From assembly GCA_947472885.1 (NCBI GenBank), contig CANJBX010000006.1:1510-65509 (forward strand): DNA of 64,000 bases. The letters are read 5' to 3'. Source of the DNA: Hyphomicrobiaceae bacterium. GTDB taxonomy: Bacteria > Pseudomonadota > Alphaproteobacteria > Rhizobiales > Xanthobacteraceae. This document shows positions 47,689 through 51,091 of this stretch, one piece after another (position 1 is the stretch's first letter; every line of letters starts with the position of its first letter). The notes beneath the pieces are model-generated. The model had not been told where the DNA came from. It searched no databases and saw nothing but the letters and a program-made list of their open reading frames with translations. A program made the translations under genes and the position numbers.

Positions 47689-47848
47689 CGCTGTCTCTAC
47701 CCGGCCTTGAGGTTCGCTGACCGGGTGCCGCGCCTTCCTGTCAGGTGTTCAACGGCCACGATGACCTCATCACCACGAAACGGCCGCAACGCGTGCAAGG
47801 CGAAGTATGCACTGTGCGAGGTTGTCGAGGCGAAGTAGTGCAGCGAGT

Positions 47849-47938
47849 GTAGCCCGGATTGAGCGCAGCGAAATCCGGGGCGGCCGTGCAGATTTGATCG
47901 ACTGTTCCCGGGTTTCGCTGCGCTCAACCCGGGCTACG
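47849..47938. repeat. Family B palindromic element: GTAGCCCGGATTGAGCGCAGCGAAATCCGGGG - 26 nt - CCCGGGTTTCGCTGCGCTCAACCCGGGCTAC
   Basis: Read directly. Further copies at 49573..49661 and 50369..50399, plus a 13-nt fragment (AGCGAAATCCGGG) near 48737. Confidence 0.85.
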
Positions 47939-47947
47939 CCTGCTCAG

Positions 47948-48691
47948 CTACTTCAAGAGCGGTTCGATGCCGTTGGCTTTCCAGACCTGTTCAGAACCTG
48001 CGAGGAAACCCTGGAGCGTCTTTGCAGCATCCGGCTGTTCTGCAACCTTCGGAATACCCGTGGACCAGATTGTCCAGTTTTGGATTTCCGGGGGCAGTTG
48101 GCCAAGGATGGTGATGCCGTGTTCATGTATGAACTCGCTCATCTGCTGGAACCCCAGGTCCGCATCGCCCTTCACGAGAAAAGTGGCTACGCGTACTCCC
48201 GGCGGGTTCTGTTTCATCTTCGGCCTCACCTGATCGAGGATGCCCATTTCCCCAATCATTCGCTCGACATAAAGGCCGCTTGGCCCAGTCGAATACACAA
48301 TCGACTTCGCATCCAGAATGGCCTTCTTCATTTTCTCTGACGTGCTCACATCCGGTTTGGGCGCACCTTCCTTCACAGCAACAGCAACCCCCGTGCGGCC
48401 AAAATCCACGCGCGATCCAGCGACGACCGATTGAGCCGTCATGAACTTCGCAATGTCCGGGGCGGTGGTGATGACGAGGTCGAACTTTCCACCCTCAGGA
48501 ATCTGCTTCTGAATGATCGATGAGCTGGACCAGATGATATTCAGCTTGTGGCCGCTGCTTTTTTCAAATTGCGGTGCGAGTTCTGTAAGTGCCTCTTTGA
48601 CTGCTGTTGTCGAGAGCACTTTGATCTCTGCCGCCGAAGCGTTGATAGCCGCAGCGATACTGACAACAACCGAGAACAAGTATTTGCGCAT
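47948..48691 (-). CDS. Orphan periplasmic substrate-binding protein (ModA / family-1 SBP-like)
   Basis: Signal peptide MRKYLFSVVVSIAAAINASAAE, ..IKVLSTTAVKEALTELAPQFEKSSGHKLNIIWSSS... There is no adjacent permease or ATPase gene. Confidence 0.7.
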   Translation of the reverse strand: MRKYLFSVVVSIAAAINASAAEIKVLSTTAVKEALTELAPQFEKSSGHKLNIIWSSSSIIQKQIPEGGKFDLVITTAPDIAKFMTAQSVVAGSRVDFGRTGVAVAVKEGAPKPDVSTSEKMKKAILDAKSIVYSTGPSGLYVERMIGEMGILDQVRPKMKQNPPGVRVATFLVKGDADLGFQQMSEFIHEHGITILGQLPPEIQNWTIWSTGIPKVAEQPDAAKTLQGFLAGSEQVWKANGIEPLLK

Positions 48692-48758
48692 GGAGCCCCC
48701 AATATTCCGATAGCTGAAAGTTTTGCCGGATGCCTCAGCGAAATCCGGGCTAGGCTTG

Positions 48759-49082
48759 CTACGCCGCCGTGGCCTTCAGGGTCGGGATTTTCTTGATCTG
48801 TGATGCCAATGCGCGCTCGGCCTGCCATGTGTCGAAAGCACCCTGCATCCGCACCCAGACGCCTGCGCCATCGCCGAACAGCTTGCCGAGGCGCACGGCG
48901 ACGGAAGGCGATACCGGCTTCTTCTCTTCCAGAATGTCATAGAGGTGTTGCCGTGAAATGCCGAGCAGCGAAGCGATTTCAGTCTTGGTCTTGCCGGTCG
49001 CGGGGATCACGTCCTCGCGCGGCAGTTCGCCGGGGTGTGTCGAGCATCGTTTCGGATCGCGCTTCGCTGCATGTTCGGCCAT
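48759..49082 (-). CDS. higA: HigA-family (VapI) XRE-HTH antitoxin
   Basis: ..HPGELPREDVI..TKTEIASLLGISRQHLYDILEEKKPVSPSVAVRLGKLFGDGAGVWVRMQGAFDTW.. Confidence 0.85.
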   Translation of the reverse strand: MAEHAAKRDPKRCSTHPGELPREDVIPATGKTKTEIASLLGISRQHLYDILEEKKPVSPSVAVRLGKLFGDGAGVWVRMQGAFDTWQAERALASQIKKIPTLKATAA

Positions 49083-49085
49083 AGG

Positions 49086-49529
49086 TTATGGATATGCCTT
49101 GTTGAACAAGTATTCTAACTTACCGCTATATAAGCTCCAGCCTCTATCTTGGTCATTGTCCAAGAAAAATTTCGATTTCAAGCACGGCAAGTGATATTCT
49201 AGATCTGCAATGATTACATCTCGCCAGACCGGATCGTGGCCCACACCGGCGAGAATTTCATCGCAGCAATTCAACAATACTGCGACGAACCAACGATACT
49301 TGTCGCTTGCTATCAATTTCGTATCGTCTTCGGGTGTGGCGAGTTCGGGATGTTTGAATGCCAACAGTAGATATTCACGGTATAGATTTTTTGCGGTCGC
49401 TTCCCGCTGTGAGATGGTCGCTGATCGAATTTGAAGATAGGTGAAAAATACGGCCCCAATTGCTGTCATCGCGACTAATACTTGCGACAGGTTTCCCAAT
49501 TTGTCGGCGTTGTTCCAAACCCACGACAT
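49086..49529 (-). CDS. Hypothetical 147-aa protein with an N-terminal TM helix, in the toxin position upstream of higA (not RelE/HigB-like)
   Basis: Uninterrupted ORF in AT-richer DNA. Its stop lies 3 nt before the higA ATG. ..LSQVLVAMTAIGAVFFTYLQI.. The ATG at 49529 follows GGGGAAAC (an alternative GTG lies at 49532). Confidence 0.6.
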   Translation of the reverse strand: MSWVWNNADKLGNLSQVLVAMTAIGAVFFTYLQIRSATISQREATAKNLYREYLLLAFKHPELATPEDDTKLIASDKYRWFVAVLLNCCDEILAGVGHDPVWRDVIIADLEYHLPCLKSKFFLDNDQDRGWSLYSGKLEYLFNKAYP

Positions 49530-49572
49530 CACGTTTCCCCATTTGGCGCTGTCTCAAGGATCTTAAGTAAGC

Positions 49573-49661
49573 GTAGCCCGGATTGAGCGTAGCGAAATCC
49601 GGGACAACTCTGCTGATTTGATCGGCCTTTCCCGGATTGCACTTCACTCATCCGGGGCTGC
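49573..49661. repeat. Family B palindromic element, degenerate right arm
   Basis: GTAGCCCGGATTGAGCGTAGCGAAATCCGGG ... CCCGGATTGCACTTCACTCATCCGGGGCTGC. Confidence 0.75.
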
Positions 49662-49664
49662 GAT

Positions 49665-50012
49665 CTATTCCTCCAAAGACGCTTTGAGGGAAATCAGCGC
49701 CGCCTTTAAGGCCGGAAGATCGTCCTTGACCGCGCGCCAGATAATGGTGTCGTCAACGCGCTGGTATTCATGGCGCAACACATTGCCGATGCCGGCAATA
49801 TCTTTCCAGCGTACTTCCTTGTGCTGTGATTTCAATTCGCGGTCGAGATGGCGGCTGGCTTCTGAAATTACTTCGACGCCGCGCTCGATCGCGGAGCGCA
49901 GAAGCCACGATCTCTGGTAGTCGCGGTACGATTTCCCGGAAATCGCCTTTTCGATTCCACGGATACTTTCGAGCATGTCGTGGATGCGCAGCAATGGTGT
50001 GCGATCAGCCAT
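49665..50012 (-). CDS. hepT: HepT-like (DUF86, HEPN) toxin of a type VII TA pair
   Basis: ..WLLRSAIERGVEVISEASRHL..WKDIAGIGNVLRHEYQRVDDTIIW... The start overlaps the MNT stop (ATGA). Confidence 0.8.
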   Translation of the reverse strand: MADRTPLLRIHDMLESIRGIEKAISGKSYRDYQRSWLLRSAIERGVEVISEASRHLDRELKSQHKEVRWKDIAGIGNVLRHEYQRVDDTIIWRAVKDDLPALKAALISLKASLEE

Positions 50013-50308
50013 CAGAAAACCCGTATGGCTTCGCTCTCGATTTTCTCGCGGATAAGAGGGTGCAGGCCTTTGCGGGTGGTGATGTCAATTCCGACACCAA
50101 GGCCTTTTTTCAGCAGCCGCCTGGCTGCCACCAGGTCAAACGCGTTGAACTTGCTGCGTGGGCCATAATCAATAAACAAATCGAGATCGCTGTTGCTGCC
50201 GGCCTTGTTCCGTGCCGTAGAGCCAAACAGGTAAAGCGAAGTCGCGCCGAGCGCCTTGAGGGCGTCAGCGTAGGTACGCAGCTTTCTGACGGCTTCAGTC
50301 TTGTTCAT
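50012..50308 (-). CDS. mntA: MNT-type nucleotidyltransferase antitoxin
   Basis: ..LYLFGSTARNKAGSNSDLDLFID.. (GS-x-AR ... DxD motif). Confidence 0.85.
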   Translation of the reverse strand: MNKTEAVRKLRTYADALKALGATSLYLFGSTARNKAGSNSDLDLFIDYGPRSKFNAFDLVAARRLLKKGLGVGIDITTRKGLHPLIREKIESEAIRVF

Positions 50309-50368
50309 CGCCTGTATTCTACCAAAATTCCTTTGGGAGCGGTCAACAATCTATCGAAGCAAGTCTAT

Positions 50369-50399
50369 CCCGGATTTCGCGTTGCTCAATCCGGGTTAC
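50369..50399. repeat. Family B half-element (CCCGGATTTCGCGTTGCTCAATCCGGGTTAC)
   Basis: Read directly, between the rpe stop and the MNT gene. Confidence 0.7.
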
Positions 50400-50404
50400 G
50401 ATGA

Positions 50405-51091
50405 TTACGCCGCTTCGCCGCGCGCCATCATCCCGGCATTCCGGATCGCCGAAATATTCGCGCGATAGGCGTCCTGTGTGCCACCCTTGAACACGGCGGA
50501 GCCGGCCACCAGCACATTAGCGCCGGCGCGCACGACCTGCGCCGCGTTGTCCGGCGTGATGCCGCCATCGACTTCAATATCAATCGGCCGTCCGCCCGCC
50601 AGTGCGCGCACGCGCGAAATCTTGTCGACTGCGCTCGCGATAAATTTCTGTCCGCCGAAACCCGGATTGACCGACATGACAAGCACGAGATCGACGAGGC
50701 CGATGACGTTCTCGAGGGTCTCGACCGGCGTGCCGGGATTGAGCGTGACGCCGGCCTTCTTGCCGAGCGCGCGGATCGCCTGCAGCGAACGGTGCACATG
50801 CGGGCCGGACTCGACGTGCACGGTGATCTGGTCGCAGCCCGCCTTGGCGAAGGCTTCGAGATACGGATCGCACGGTGCGATCATCAGATGCGCGTCAAAA
50901 AACTTCTTGGTGTGCGGGCGCATCGCCTTGATGACATCCGGCCCGTAGGAAATGTTCGGGACAAAGTGGCCGTCCATGACATCGAGATGCATCCAGTCGG
51001 CGCCGGCCGCATCGACGGCGCGGATTTCCTCGCCCAGCCTGGCGAAGTCGGCGGCGAGGATGGACGGGGCGATGAGGAGGGGACGGGTCAT
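50405..51091 (-). CDS. rpe: Ribulose-phosphate 3-epimerase
   Basis: [45 protein letters not shown].. Confidence 0.95.

What the first reader, a model, noticed from the sequence alone, without database searches (positions are those of the whole stretch)
48759..49529. HigA-type antitoxin coupled to a 148-aa membrane-anchored protein in place of HigB
ORF 48759..49082(-) is a clear HigA/VapI XRE-HTH antitoxin. In higBA modules the toxin gene sits immediately upstream of the antitoxin. Here that position (49086..49529, same strand, stop only 3 nt before the higA ATG and no separate strong SD, so probably translationally coupled) holds a different protein. It shows none of the RelE/HigB sequence features I recognise. 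It has an N-terminal hydrophobic helix (LSQVLVAMTAIGAVFFTYLQI) followed by a ~115-aa soluble part (..NLYREYLLLAFKHPELATPEDD..RWFVAVLLNCCDEILAGVGHDPVWRDVIIADLEYHLP..). The pair lies in AT-richer DNA between copies of a palindromic repeat, next to a HepT/MNT module. This is the context in which toxin or abortive-infection effectors swap partners. From memory, the architecture (TM anchor plus helical domain, ~150 aa) vaguely recalls DUF4760-type proteins, but I cannot verify that. It may be a new membrane-acting toxin or effector controlled by a HigA-like repressor.
Basis: partly seen in the sequence, partly recalled or inferred. Interest (0 to 1): 0.7.

Follow-up and report, generated by a model that had tools for sequence, protein, structure and literature searches.

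The report
Orphan Drt1b-like membrane gene replacing HigB
In this bacterium the toxin gene of an ordinary higBA toxin-antitoxin pair has been replaced by a foreign gene for a small membrane-anchored protein related to the little-understood membrane partner of a reverse-transcriptase anti-phage system, but the pairing occurs only in this lineage, so it is probably a recent chimera and not a new conserved system.

Summary
A 147-aa ORF (49086..49529, minus strand) ends 3 nt before a genuine HigA gene (48759..49082). The HigA gene has no Shine-Dalgarno site of its own and sits in the same frame. The upstream protein has one N-terminal transmembrane helix and an all-helical domain, and it is not HigB.

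It is not an unknown family, though. It matches PADLOC's Drt1b|RTasTM model (E 1.2e-22), the small membrane protein found beside RT-nitrilase defence genes (DRT1/UG1, UG5-large). About 875 cluster representatives belong to this family. No RT-nitrilase is present in the 64-kb window.

The HigA link is not conserved. None of 27 loci carrying other family members (about 19 distinct contexts) holds a HigA-like gene. Close relatives are mostly solitary, low-GC genes in toxin-antitoxin or mobile islets. Another clade sits inside the complex I (nuo) operon between nuoF and nuoG. The four annotated HigA relatives examined, out of 71 plasmid matches (62-68% identity), each follow a RelE/ParE HigB with its own ribosome-binding site and a shared operator-like motif. 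All of that is missing here.

Best reading: a recent, lineage-specific replacement of higB by an orphan Drt1b-like cassette. Whether the result works as a toxin-antitoxin pair is open (about 30%). Interest is moderate.

The parts
49086..49529 (-). Gene for an orphan Drt1b/RTasTM-family protein of 147 aa (alternative GTG start at 49532). It has a short N-terminus predicted outside, a TM helix at residues ~14-32, and a ~110-aa all-helical domain predicted cytoplasmic.
   Evidence: ORF and sequence. PADLOC PDLC03821 Drt1b|RTasTM, E 1.2e-22, 78.8 bits, residues 8-120. Profile search finds 875 cluster representatives at E<1e-3. AF2 model pLDDT 89.5, all helices. TM segment and K+R bias (0.9 before, 2.8 after, across 196 members). 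GC 45.3%.
49083..49085 (-). 3-nt spacer (CCT) between the TAA stop of the TM gene and the higA ATG. Both ORFs are in the same frame, and no Shine-Dalgarno site precedes higA.
   Evidence: Sequence. Junction compared with four canonical higBA loci.
48759..49082 (-). higA, encoding a HigA-family XRE helix-turn-helix antitoxin of 107 aa. It carries Pro instead of Leu in the HPGELL motif that the four compared relatives share.
   Evidence: TIGR02607 69.5 bits against a cut-off of 47.7. 62-68% identity to plasmid HigAs that follow RelE/ParE HigB. L21P seen in the comparison. DNA homology to those loci starts about 7 nt before the ATG.
49570..49662 (.). REP-like double palindromic element between HepT and the TM gene. 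It leaves only about 40 nt before the TM start codon.
   Evidence: No sigma-70-like promoter found in 48500-50500.
48736..48763 (.). Partial REP-like element immediately after, and overlapping, the higA stop codon.
   Evidence: D3, I6-I8.
49665..50012 (-). HepT-like RNase toxin gene. It is a neighbouring type VII toxin-antitoxin module, not shown to be part of the pair.
   Evidence: PF01934, E 3.9e-23.
50012..50308 (-). MNT-type nucleotidyltransferase antitoxin gene, overlapping HepT by 1 nt.
   Evidence: PF01909, E 7e-13. ORF coordinates.
50365..50402 (.). REP-like unit between rpe and MNT, marking the outer edge of the islet.
   Evidence: D2, I2, I4.

Best explanation
This is a recent, lineage-specific chimeric operon.

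How it arose (inferred). The higB toxin gene of a canonical higBA module, together with its promoter/operator and the higA ribosome-binding site, was replaced by a horizontally acquired, low-GC, single-gene cassette. That cassette encodes an orphan member of the Drt1b/RTasTM family.

What the protein is. It is a single-pass membrane protein, predicted N-out/C-in. A roughly 110-aa helical domain of unknown fold class faces the cytoplasm.

How it most likely works (inferred). The membrane protein is the functional cargo and acts on its own, as its closest relatives do. It would serve as a membrane-anchored effector or adaptor, and it needs neither an RT-nitrilase nor HigA. HigA is a left-over antitoxin. 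Its translation now depends on termination and re-initiation at the end of the TM ORF. At most it acts as a DNA-binding regulator.

Shown: the gene identities, the junction, the composition contrast, the missing HigB, Shine-Dalgarno site and operator motif, and the lack of conservation of the pairing.

Inferred: the replacement scenario, the membrane topology, the autonomy of the TM protein, and the relic status of HigA.
For: 1. Family identity. The protein hits PADLOC Drt1b|RTasTM at E 1.2e-22, and all 72 relatives tested hit the same model. Bona fide Drt1b genes in this family sit 4 nt inside the end of Drt1a RT-nitrilase genes in Vibrio and Pseudoalteromonas plasmids.

2. No RT-nitrilase occurs in the 64-kb window or in the close-clade loci.

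3. The four annotated HigA relatives I examined out of 71 plasmid matches (62-68% identity) each follow a ~92-aa RelE/ParE toxin. Each has its own Shine-Dalgarno site and a shared operator-like motif of the TTGACAtATGT type overlapping a -35-like hexamer. That this motif is the operator is my inference.

4. In the window there is no HigB remnant, no Shine-Dalgarno site before higA and no such motif anywhere. DNA homology to the higBA loci begins about 7 nt before the higA ATG.

5. The composition is split. The TM gene is 45% GC (GC3 51%) and higA is 62% (GC3 74%). Homologues of the TM gene are likewise low-GC relative to their own loci.

6. DNA homology to the loci of the 65% and 58% relatives is confined to the ORF.

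7. The pairing is unique to this lineage. A tblastn search with HigA finds nothing at E<=0.1 in 27 loci (173 kb) carrying other family members. The close relatives are solitary or lie in toxin-antitoxin or mobile islets.

8. The family is under purifying selection: dN is 0.24-0.47 with dS saturated, giving a ratio of about 0.1.
Against: - The junction is strikingly clean. Both ORFs are complete, sit 3 nt apart and keep the toxin-first order. That arrangement is what selection for a coupled two-gene unit would produce, and it is less expected from a random insertion.
- The locus is identical across many metagenomic contigs, so the arrangement is stable in the population.
- Membrane proteins beside defence genes are usually effectors. 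An effector sitting in a toxin slot next to an antitoxin is suggestive of a real pair.
- The context sample is small (about 19 distinct contexts out of 875 or more cluster representatives). A minority HigA-linked clade could have been missed.
- No experiment bears on toxicity or on binding.
Confidence: 0.5

Rival explanations
1. A working new type II toxin-antitoxin or abortive-infection pair created by toxin swapping. The Drt1b-like protein would be a membrane-acting toxin (depolarisation or pore formation). HigA would neutralise it by binding its cytoplasmic domain, or would keep it low by repressing the operon. Loss of the labile HigA, for instance during phage infection, would release the toxin.
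For: - The order is toxin-first, with a 3-nt gap and no separate Shine-Dalgarno site, so HigA synthesis is tied to TM synthesis.
- The locus lies in a toxin-antitoxin islet next to MNT/HepT. Close relatives also sit in such islets, next to VapBC or ParE/RelB/MNT-HepT.
- Family members are required partners in some DRT1/UG5-large defence systems, and a membrane effector role has been proposed for them (PMC13275509; PMC9226505).
- Type II modules with membrane-depolarising transmembrane toxins are known: PanT and RmrT (PMC8832971 and PMC10440598).
- A nonsense allele (S119*) of the TM gene segregates in two metagenomes while HigA stays intact. This is as expected for a costly toxin.
Against: - The pairing is found in no other lineage.
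- Close relatives persist as solitary genes with no candidate antitoxin.
- A sister clade is constitutively embedded in the nuo operon.
- The HigA is 62-68% identical to HigB-partnered HigAs and shows no evident adaptation to a new partner.
- The operator-like motif of the related higBA promoters is absent.
- The truncation at residue 119 leaves the core matched by the Drt1b model (residues 8-120), so it may not be a null allele.
Confidence: 0.3
2. A four-gene unit, MNT-HepT-TM-HigA, transcribed from the MNT promoter. The membrane protein would be an added effector or anchor for the nucleotidyltransferase module. This is loosely analogous to Hailong, where a nucleotidyltransferase controls a membrane channel.
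For: - All four genes are on one strand, and no promoter-like site lies between HepT and the TM gene.
- Only about 40 nt separate the REP element from the TM start codon.
- A second close-clade locus (L036) also has an MNT plus HepT pair 1.4 kb upstream of its TM gene.
- The DRT1 paper itself draws the Hailong analogy for Drt1b.
Against: - MNT-HepT is a self-sufficient type VII module.
- A 93-nt double palindrome separates it from the TM gene.
- The two MNT/HepT pairs are only 23-32% identical, and in L036 they are separated from the TM gene by other genes.
- The remaining close-clade loci in which MNT and HepT were searched for have neither.
- The composition of the modules differs.
Confidence: 0.08
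3. A decaying remnant. Both genes would be drifting toward loss after the higBA module was disrupted, and neither would have a current function.
For: - A nonsense allele of the TM gene is found in two samples.
- HigA carries Pro in place of Leu in the HPGELL motif shared by the four compared relatives.
- HigA lacks a ribosome-binding site and the operator-like motif.
Against: - Both ORFs are intact, and the TM gene DNA is 100% identical on most of the metagenomic contigs compared.
- The TM family is under strong purifying selection.
- HigA still scores well above the family cut-off.
Confidence: 0.12

Closest known systems
Drt1b / 'RTasTM' (Mestre et al. cluster 85 and 1858): the small transmembrane protein encoded downstream of UG1 (DRT1) and UG5-large RT-nitrilase genes
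   Same: The sequence family is the same (PADLOC PDLC03821, E 1.2e-22). So is the architecture: an N-terminal TM helix followed by a helical domain of about 110 aa, for a total of about 150 aa.
   Different: No RT-nitrilase partner is present. The score is far below that of genuine Drt1b (78.8 against 196.7 bits), and the protein falls in a separate clade. It is followed here by HigA. The function of Drt1b itself is unknown. It is present at only 18-19% of drt1 loci, and it is required in some systems but not in others (PMC13275509, PMC9226505, PMC13436386).
higBA type II toxin-antitoxin module (RelE/ParE-fold HigB followed by the HigA XRE-HTH antitoxin)
   Same: The antitoxin is a true HigA (TIGR02607). 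The gene order is toxin-slot first with tight spacing. The setting is a toxin-antitoxin islet.
   Different: The toxin slot holds an all-helical membrane protein instead of a RelE-fold RNase. The higBA promoter/operator-like motif and the higA Shine-Dalgarno site seen in the four relatives compared are missing.
Type II modules with membrane-depolarising transmembrane toxins (PanT/PanA; RmrT/RmrA of RosmerTA)
   Same: These show that a proteinaceous antitoxin next to a toxin carrying a TM helix is a known concept, and that partner swapping among such modules is well documented.
   Different: The toxin and antitoxin families are different. In those systems the pairing is conserved and has been validated experimentally. 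Here it is a single lineage and untested.
Unassigned ORFs within alphaproteobacterial nuo/nqo (complex I) operons
   Same: A clade of the same family (about 30-35% identity to the window protein) sits between nuoF and nuoG, overlapping the nuoF stop codon.
   Different: Those genes are fixed in a housekeeping operon, whereas the window gene lies in a toxin-antitoxin islet. That alphaproteobacterial nqo/nuo clusters contain URFs of unknown function is my own recollection. I did not confirm it in the literature.

Membership tests
Drt1b/RTasTM protein family | Significant match to the family profile over most of the domain | tested here: met
   PDLC03821, E 1.2e-22, 78.8 bits, protein residues 8-120 against profile positions 14-128 of 151. 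All 72 relatives tested also match.
Drt1b/RTasTM protein family | Single N-terminal TM helix followed by a soluble helical domain, about 150 aa in total | tested here: met
   Hydrophobic segment at residues 14-32. 91% of 196 members have a segment above 1.6 on the Kyte-Doolittle scale. The AF2 model is all-helical.
DRT1 / UG5-large defence system | Adjacent RT-nitrilase gene (Drt1a, or UG5 RT fused to a C-N hydrolase) | tested here: not met
   tblastn with two Drt1a proteins finds no hit at E<=1 in the 64-kb window, and none in the close-clade loci.
higBA type II toxin-antitoxin module | HigA-family XRE-HTH antitoxin | tested here: met
   TIGR02607, 69.5 bits against a cut-off of 47.7.
higBA type II toxin-antitoxin module | RelE/ParE-fold HigB toxin immediately upstream | tested here: not met
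   No Pfam or NCBIfam hit. All-helical model. No Foldseek match. No HigB-like sequence anywhere in the window.
higBA type II toxin-antitoxin module | Autoregulated promoter/operator upstream of the toxin gene | tested here: not met
   The operator-like motif shared by four related higBA loci is absent from the whole window. No sigma-70-like site was found. A different, unrecognised operator cannot be excluded.
Type II toxin-antitoxin system (generic) | Conserved co-occurrence of the two genes across lineages | tested here: not met
   No HigA-like sequence in the 27 loci (about 19 distinct contexts) with other family members. The pair is seen only on near-identical contigs of a single population.
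Type II toxin-antitoxin system (generic) | Toxicity of the first gene and neutralisation by the second | not testable with these tools
   Needs expression and rescue assays.
   No hit at E<=1 for the protein. None at E<=0.01 among 72 relatives. Only weak DUF6082 hits, in 8 of 72.
MNT-HepT type VII toxin-antitoxin module (neighbour) | HepT-like RNase plus NTP_transf_2 antitoxin, with overlapping genes | tested here: met
   PF01934 at 3.9e-23 and PF01909 at 7e-13, with a 1-nt overlap. The NCBIfam equivalog scores are below cut-off.

The most novel reading that the evidence does not exclude
Drt1b-family proteins are autonomous membrane effectors. This locus would then be a natural experiment in which one of them has been captured as the toxin of a HigA-controlled two-gene toxin-antitoxin or abortive-infection module. 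If so, a simple two-gene system would reveal what the enigmatic Drt1b partner does in DRT1/UG5 reverse-transcriptase defence, and what its nuo-operon cousins do. A still bolder variant is that the membrane protein tethers or sequesters HigA at the membrane, making it a signal-released transcription factor.
Probability: 0.25. Interest if true: 0.7.

Novelty: new variant of a known kind. Interest (0 to 1): 0.5.

Why it matters
The role of Drt1b is an open question in reverse-transcriptase-based phage defence. It is required in some DRT1/UG5-large systems and dispensable in others, and no mechanism is known.

This work shows three things:
- The family is much larger than its RT-linked members.
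- It occurs mostly as orphan genes in toxin-antitoxin or mobile islets.
- One clade is hard-wired into the complex I operon.

A member sitting exactly in the toxin slot of a higBA module gives a compact, testable construct of two small genes. With it one can ask whether these proteins are membrane toxins or membrane adaptors.

If the pair turns out to be inert, the locus is still a clean, datable example of toxin displacement in a type II module.

Tried and rejected
- Divergent RelE/HigB fold: rejected. The AF2 model is all-helical, and Foldseek finds nothing in PDB or BFVD at E<0.5.
- Sequence search of the PDB with the family profile: only chance hits to forkhead domains at E>0.07.
- DUF4760: no HMM support and no useful literature.
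- A true DRT1 system: rejected, because no Drt1a is present.
- A HigB remnant or a trans-encoded HigB in the window: none found.
- The operator-like motif of the related higBA promoters: absent.
- The search for related loci with family alignments on genome contigs failed three times because no stretch was conserved enough.
- My degenerate DNA pattern found only 1 genome locus and 5 metagenome loci.
- IMG/VR gave no relatives, and GenBank phages gave none.
- Plasmids yielded only 4 records.
- Longer family members (200-289 aa) show no informative fused Pfam domain.
- I did not run AF2 on a TM-HigA fusion, because the tool reports no inter-domain error or contact data from which to judge an interface.
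- Literature on URFs in the nuo operon: nothing usable found.

Full report
**1. Observation**

On the minus strand, a 107-aa ORF (48759..49082) is preceded by a 147-aa ORF (49086..49529; a GTG one codon upstream would give 148 aa). The upstream ORF ends in TAA at 49088-49086. CCT follows, and then the ATG of the downstream ORF. The gap is therefore 3 nt, and the two ORFs share a reading frame.

The downstream protein is a genuine HigA. It scores 69.5 bits on NCBIfam TIGR02607 against a cut-off of 47.7, and it matches PHROG 1381, 'plasmid antitoxin with HTH'.

MNT (PF01909) and HepT (PF01934) genes lie directly upstream on the same strand.

The TM gene is 45.3% GC. HigA is 62% and the whole window 61.9%.

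REP-like palindromes flank the modules at 47846-47938, 48736-48763, 49570-49662 and 50365-50402.

Every descriptive element of the finding is confirmed.

**2. What the upstream protein is**

Pfam and NCBIfam give nothing significant. PADLOC's Drt1b|RTasTM model matches at E 1.2e-22 over residues 8-120.

An exhaustive profile search finds 875 cluster representatives at E<1e-3 and 287 at E<1e-10. All 72 that I tested hit the same PADLOC model.

The family includes bona fide Drt1b. On Vibrio tubiashii p251 and a Pseudoalteromonas plasmid, homologues overlap by 4 nt the end of 1288-aa and 1225-aa proteins that match Drt1a at E=0. These sit beside Qat and viperin defence genes.

Those true Drt1b proteins score 196.7 bits, whereas the window protein scores 78.8. 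A distance tree places the window protein in a different clade. It is therefore a Drt1b-like relative and not a Drt1b proper.

No RT-nitrilase exists in the 64-kb window or in any close-clade locus.

*Published background on Drt1b*
- About 18-19% of UG1/DRT1 loci carry this TM gene, as do about 10% of UG5-large loci.
- The gene is needed in some systems and dispensable in others.
- Its mechanism is unknown, and a Hailong-like membrane effector role has been suggested.
- Sources: PMC13275509; PMC9226505; PMC13436386.

**3. Structure and topology**

AF2, run with a 41-sequence alignment, gives a confident all-helical model (pLDDT 89.5, pTM 0.74). A long helix spans residues 8-59 and contains the TM segment. 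Further helices lie at 76-96, 100-112 and 136-145.

Foldseek finds no relative in the PDB or in BFVD (best E 0.56 and 0.9). A profile search of PDB sequences finds nothing either. The protein is therefore not a cryptic RelE/HigB.

There is one hydrophobic segment, at residues 14-32. Across 196 family members, K+R averages 0.9 in the 15 residues before the TM helix and 2.8 in the 15 after it. By the positive-inside rule this predicts N-out/C-in, with the helical domain in the cytoplasm. That topology is an inference.

Family-wide near-invariant residues include E43, A46, Y53, P61, Y78, W80, F81, L86, W102 and H113.

Among the close relatives dN is 0.24-0.47 while dS is saturated. The ratio is about 0.1 where it can be computed, which indicates purifying selection.

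**4. Is the HigA pairing conserved?**

It is not, in the sample I could obtain.

*Window lineage.* Identical or near-identical copies of the whole locus occur on many metagenomic contigs. All come from what looks like one population.

*Close clade.* All other family members lack HigA:

| Relative | Identity to the window protein | Context |
|---|---|---|
| L004 | 65% | Alone |
| L005 | 58% | Followed by a BrnA-like fragment and a 232-aa membrane protein |
| L035 | 58% | Solitary, near an IS110 element |
| L036 | 57% | In an islet with MNT-HepT, ParE/RelB and a DUF2321-like gene |
| L038-L044 | 45% | Solitary |
| L027 and L006 | not measured | Island beside an integrase; the L006 copy is frameshifted |
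| L028 | not measured | Beside a VapBC-like (PIN toxin) pair, judged from the ORF translations |
| L010 | 35% | Followed by a 111-aa protein of unknown family |

*Other settings*
- A Rhizobium phaseoli plasmid copy precedes an unknown gene and a metallophosphoesterase.
- A large clade lies between nuoF and nuoG.

A tblastn search with HigA against 27 such loci (173 kb, about 19 distinct contexts) gives no hit at E<=0.1.

**5. Where HigA comes from**

I examined four of the 71 plasmid matches to this HigA (62-68% identity; Rhizobium, Alloyangia, Martelella, Thioclava). Each follows a ~92-aa RelE/ParE toxin by 9-26 nt.

Each of the four has a Shine-Dalgarno site before higA. Each also has a shared TTGACAtATGT-type motif upstream of higB, overlapping a -35-like hexamer. 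That this motif is the operator is my inference.

In the window:
- No HigB-like sequence exists anywhere.
- DNA homology to those loci begins about 7 nt before the higA ATG.
- The Shine-Dalgarno site is gone.
- The operator-like motif is absent from all 64 kb.
- No sigma-70-like promoter lies between HepT and the TM gene.

Homology between the window's TM gene and its 65% and 58% relatives is confined to the ORF. Family genes are low-GC relative to their loci wherever I looked.

The simplest history is that a mobile, single-gene, low-GC cassette displaced higB and its control region. A complete higA was left, and its translation now depends on the upstream ORF.

**6. Mechanism**

I commit, at about 0.5, to the chimera reading. 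The Drt1b-like protein is the functional cargo. It acts autonomously as a membrane-anchored effector or adaptor, as its solitary relatives must. HigA is a relic or an incidental regulator.

The main rival, at about 0.3, is that the swap produced a working toxin-antitoxin or abortive-infection pair.
- In its favour are the clean 3-nt toxin-first junction, the toxin-antitoxin islet setting, precedents for transmembrane toxins in type II modules, and a segregating nonsense allele.
- That allele is S119* (C356A), found in two metagenomes with HigA intact.
- Against it are the non-conserved pairing, the solitary close relatives, the nuo-embedded clade, and a HigA that still looks like a HigB partner.

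Two minor rivals remain: a four-gene MNT-HepT-TM-HigA unit (0.08) and plain decay (0.12).

**7. Novelty and verdict**

The parts are known families, and toxin swapping is a known process. The combination of an orphan Drt1b-like protein in the HigB slot has not, to my knowledge, been described. I rate it a new variant of a known kind.

Interest is 0.5. The locus offers a small, tractable construct for asking what Drt1b-family proteins do. Current evidence, however, does not show that the pair is a system. The wider picture of the family (mostly orphan genes, plus a clade in the complex I operon) may be the more durable result.

Noticed in passing
L007 5001-5501; L008 1236-1736; L009 5001-5534; L012 290-787; L013 5001-6251: A large clade of the same Drt1b-like family (about 155-177 aa, 30-35% identical to the window protein) sits inside alphaproteobacterial nuo (complex I) operons between nuoF and nuoG. 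It overlaps the nuoF stop codon. This is a housekeeping context for a protein family named after a defence system.
   Followed up: partly
L021 501-944 and L022 510-953 (equivalent to window 49174, codon 119 of the TM gene): Two metagenomic variants of this exact locus, from different samples, carry a C-to-A nonsense mutation (S119*) in the TM gene while HigA is unchanged. The truncation removes the last 29 residues but keeps the core matched by the Drt1b model.
   Followed up: partly
window 49020-49022 (HigA residue 21): HigA reads HPGELPRE where all four compared relatives have HPGELLRE or HPGALLED. A proline sits in the conserved N-terminal motif. This may reflect relaxed constraint on an orphan antitoxin.
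   Followed up: no
window 49082-49088: The TM ORF and higA are in the same reading frame, separated only by TAA CCT. Read-through of a single stop codon would give a membrane-anchored HigA fusion.
   Followed up: no
L036 1958-4468: The 57%-identical relative lies in an islet with its own MNT plus HepT pair (23-32% identical to the window's; the HepT gene was not called), then ParE/RelB and a DUF2321-like gene. The type of neighbourhood is the same as in the window, but the content does not look shared by descent.
   Followed up: partly
L016 5770-8480 (Rhizobium phaseoli plasmid pRphaN261d, unannotated in PLSDB): A Drt1b-like gene is followed by a 251-aa protein of unknown family and a calcineurin-like metallophosphoesterase. 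A lysozyme/CHAP protein is encoded upstream on the opposite strand. This may be another uncharacterised multi-gene system built around the same membrane protein.
   Followed up: partly
L006 2125-2532 versus L027 10928-11335: The same island gene, next to an integrase, is intact (135 aa) in a metagenome contig. In the Hyphomicrobiaceae MAG it is split by a frameshift. This is either a pseudogene or an assembly error.
   Followed up: no
L019 1-127 and L023 1-32: Two contigs with identical HigA diverge from the window inside the TM gene, at contig ends. These are either assembly chimeras or strains in which the 5' part of the TM gene, along with MNT-HepT, has been replaced.
   Followed up: no
window 47846-47938, 48736-48763, 49570-49662, 50365-50402: REP-like palindromic units bracket each small module: the SBP gene, TM-HigA and MNT-HepT. 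They may be the recombination substrates that assemble this islet.
   Followed up: partly
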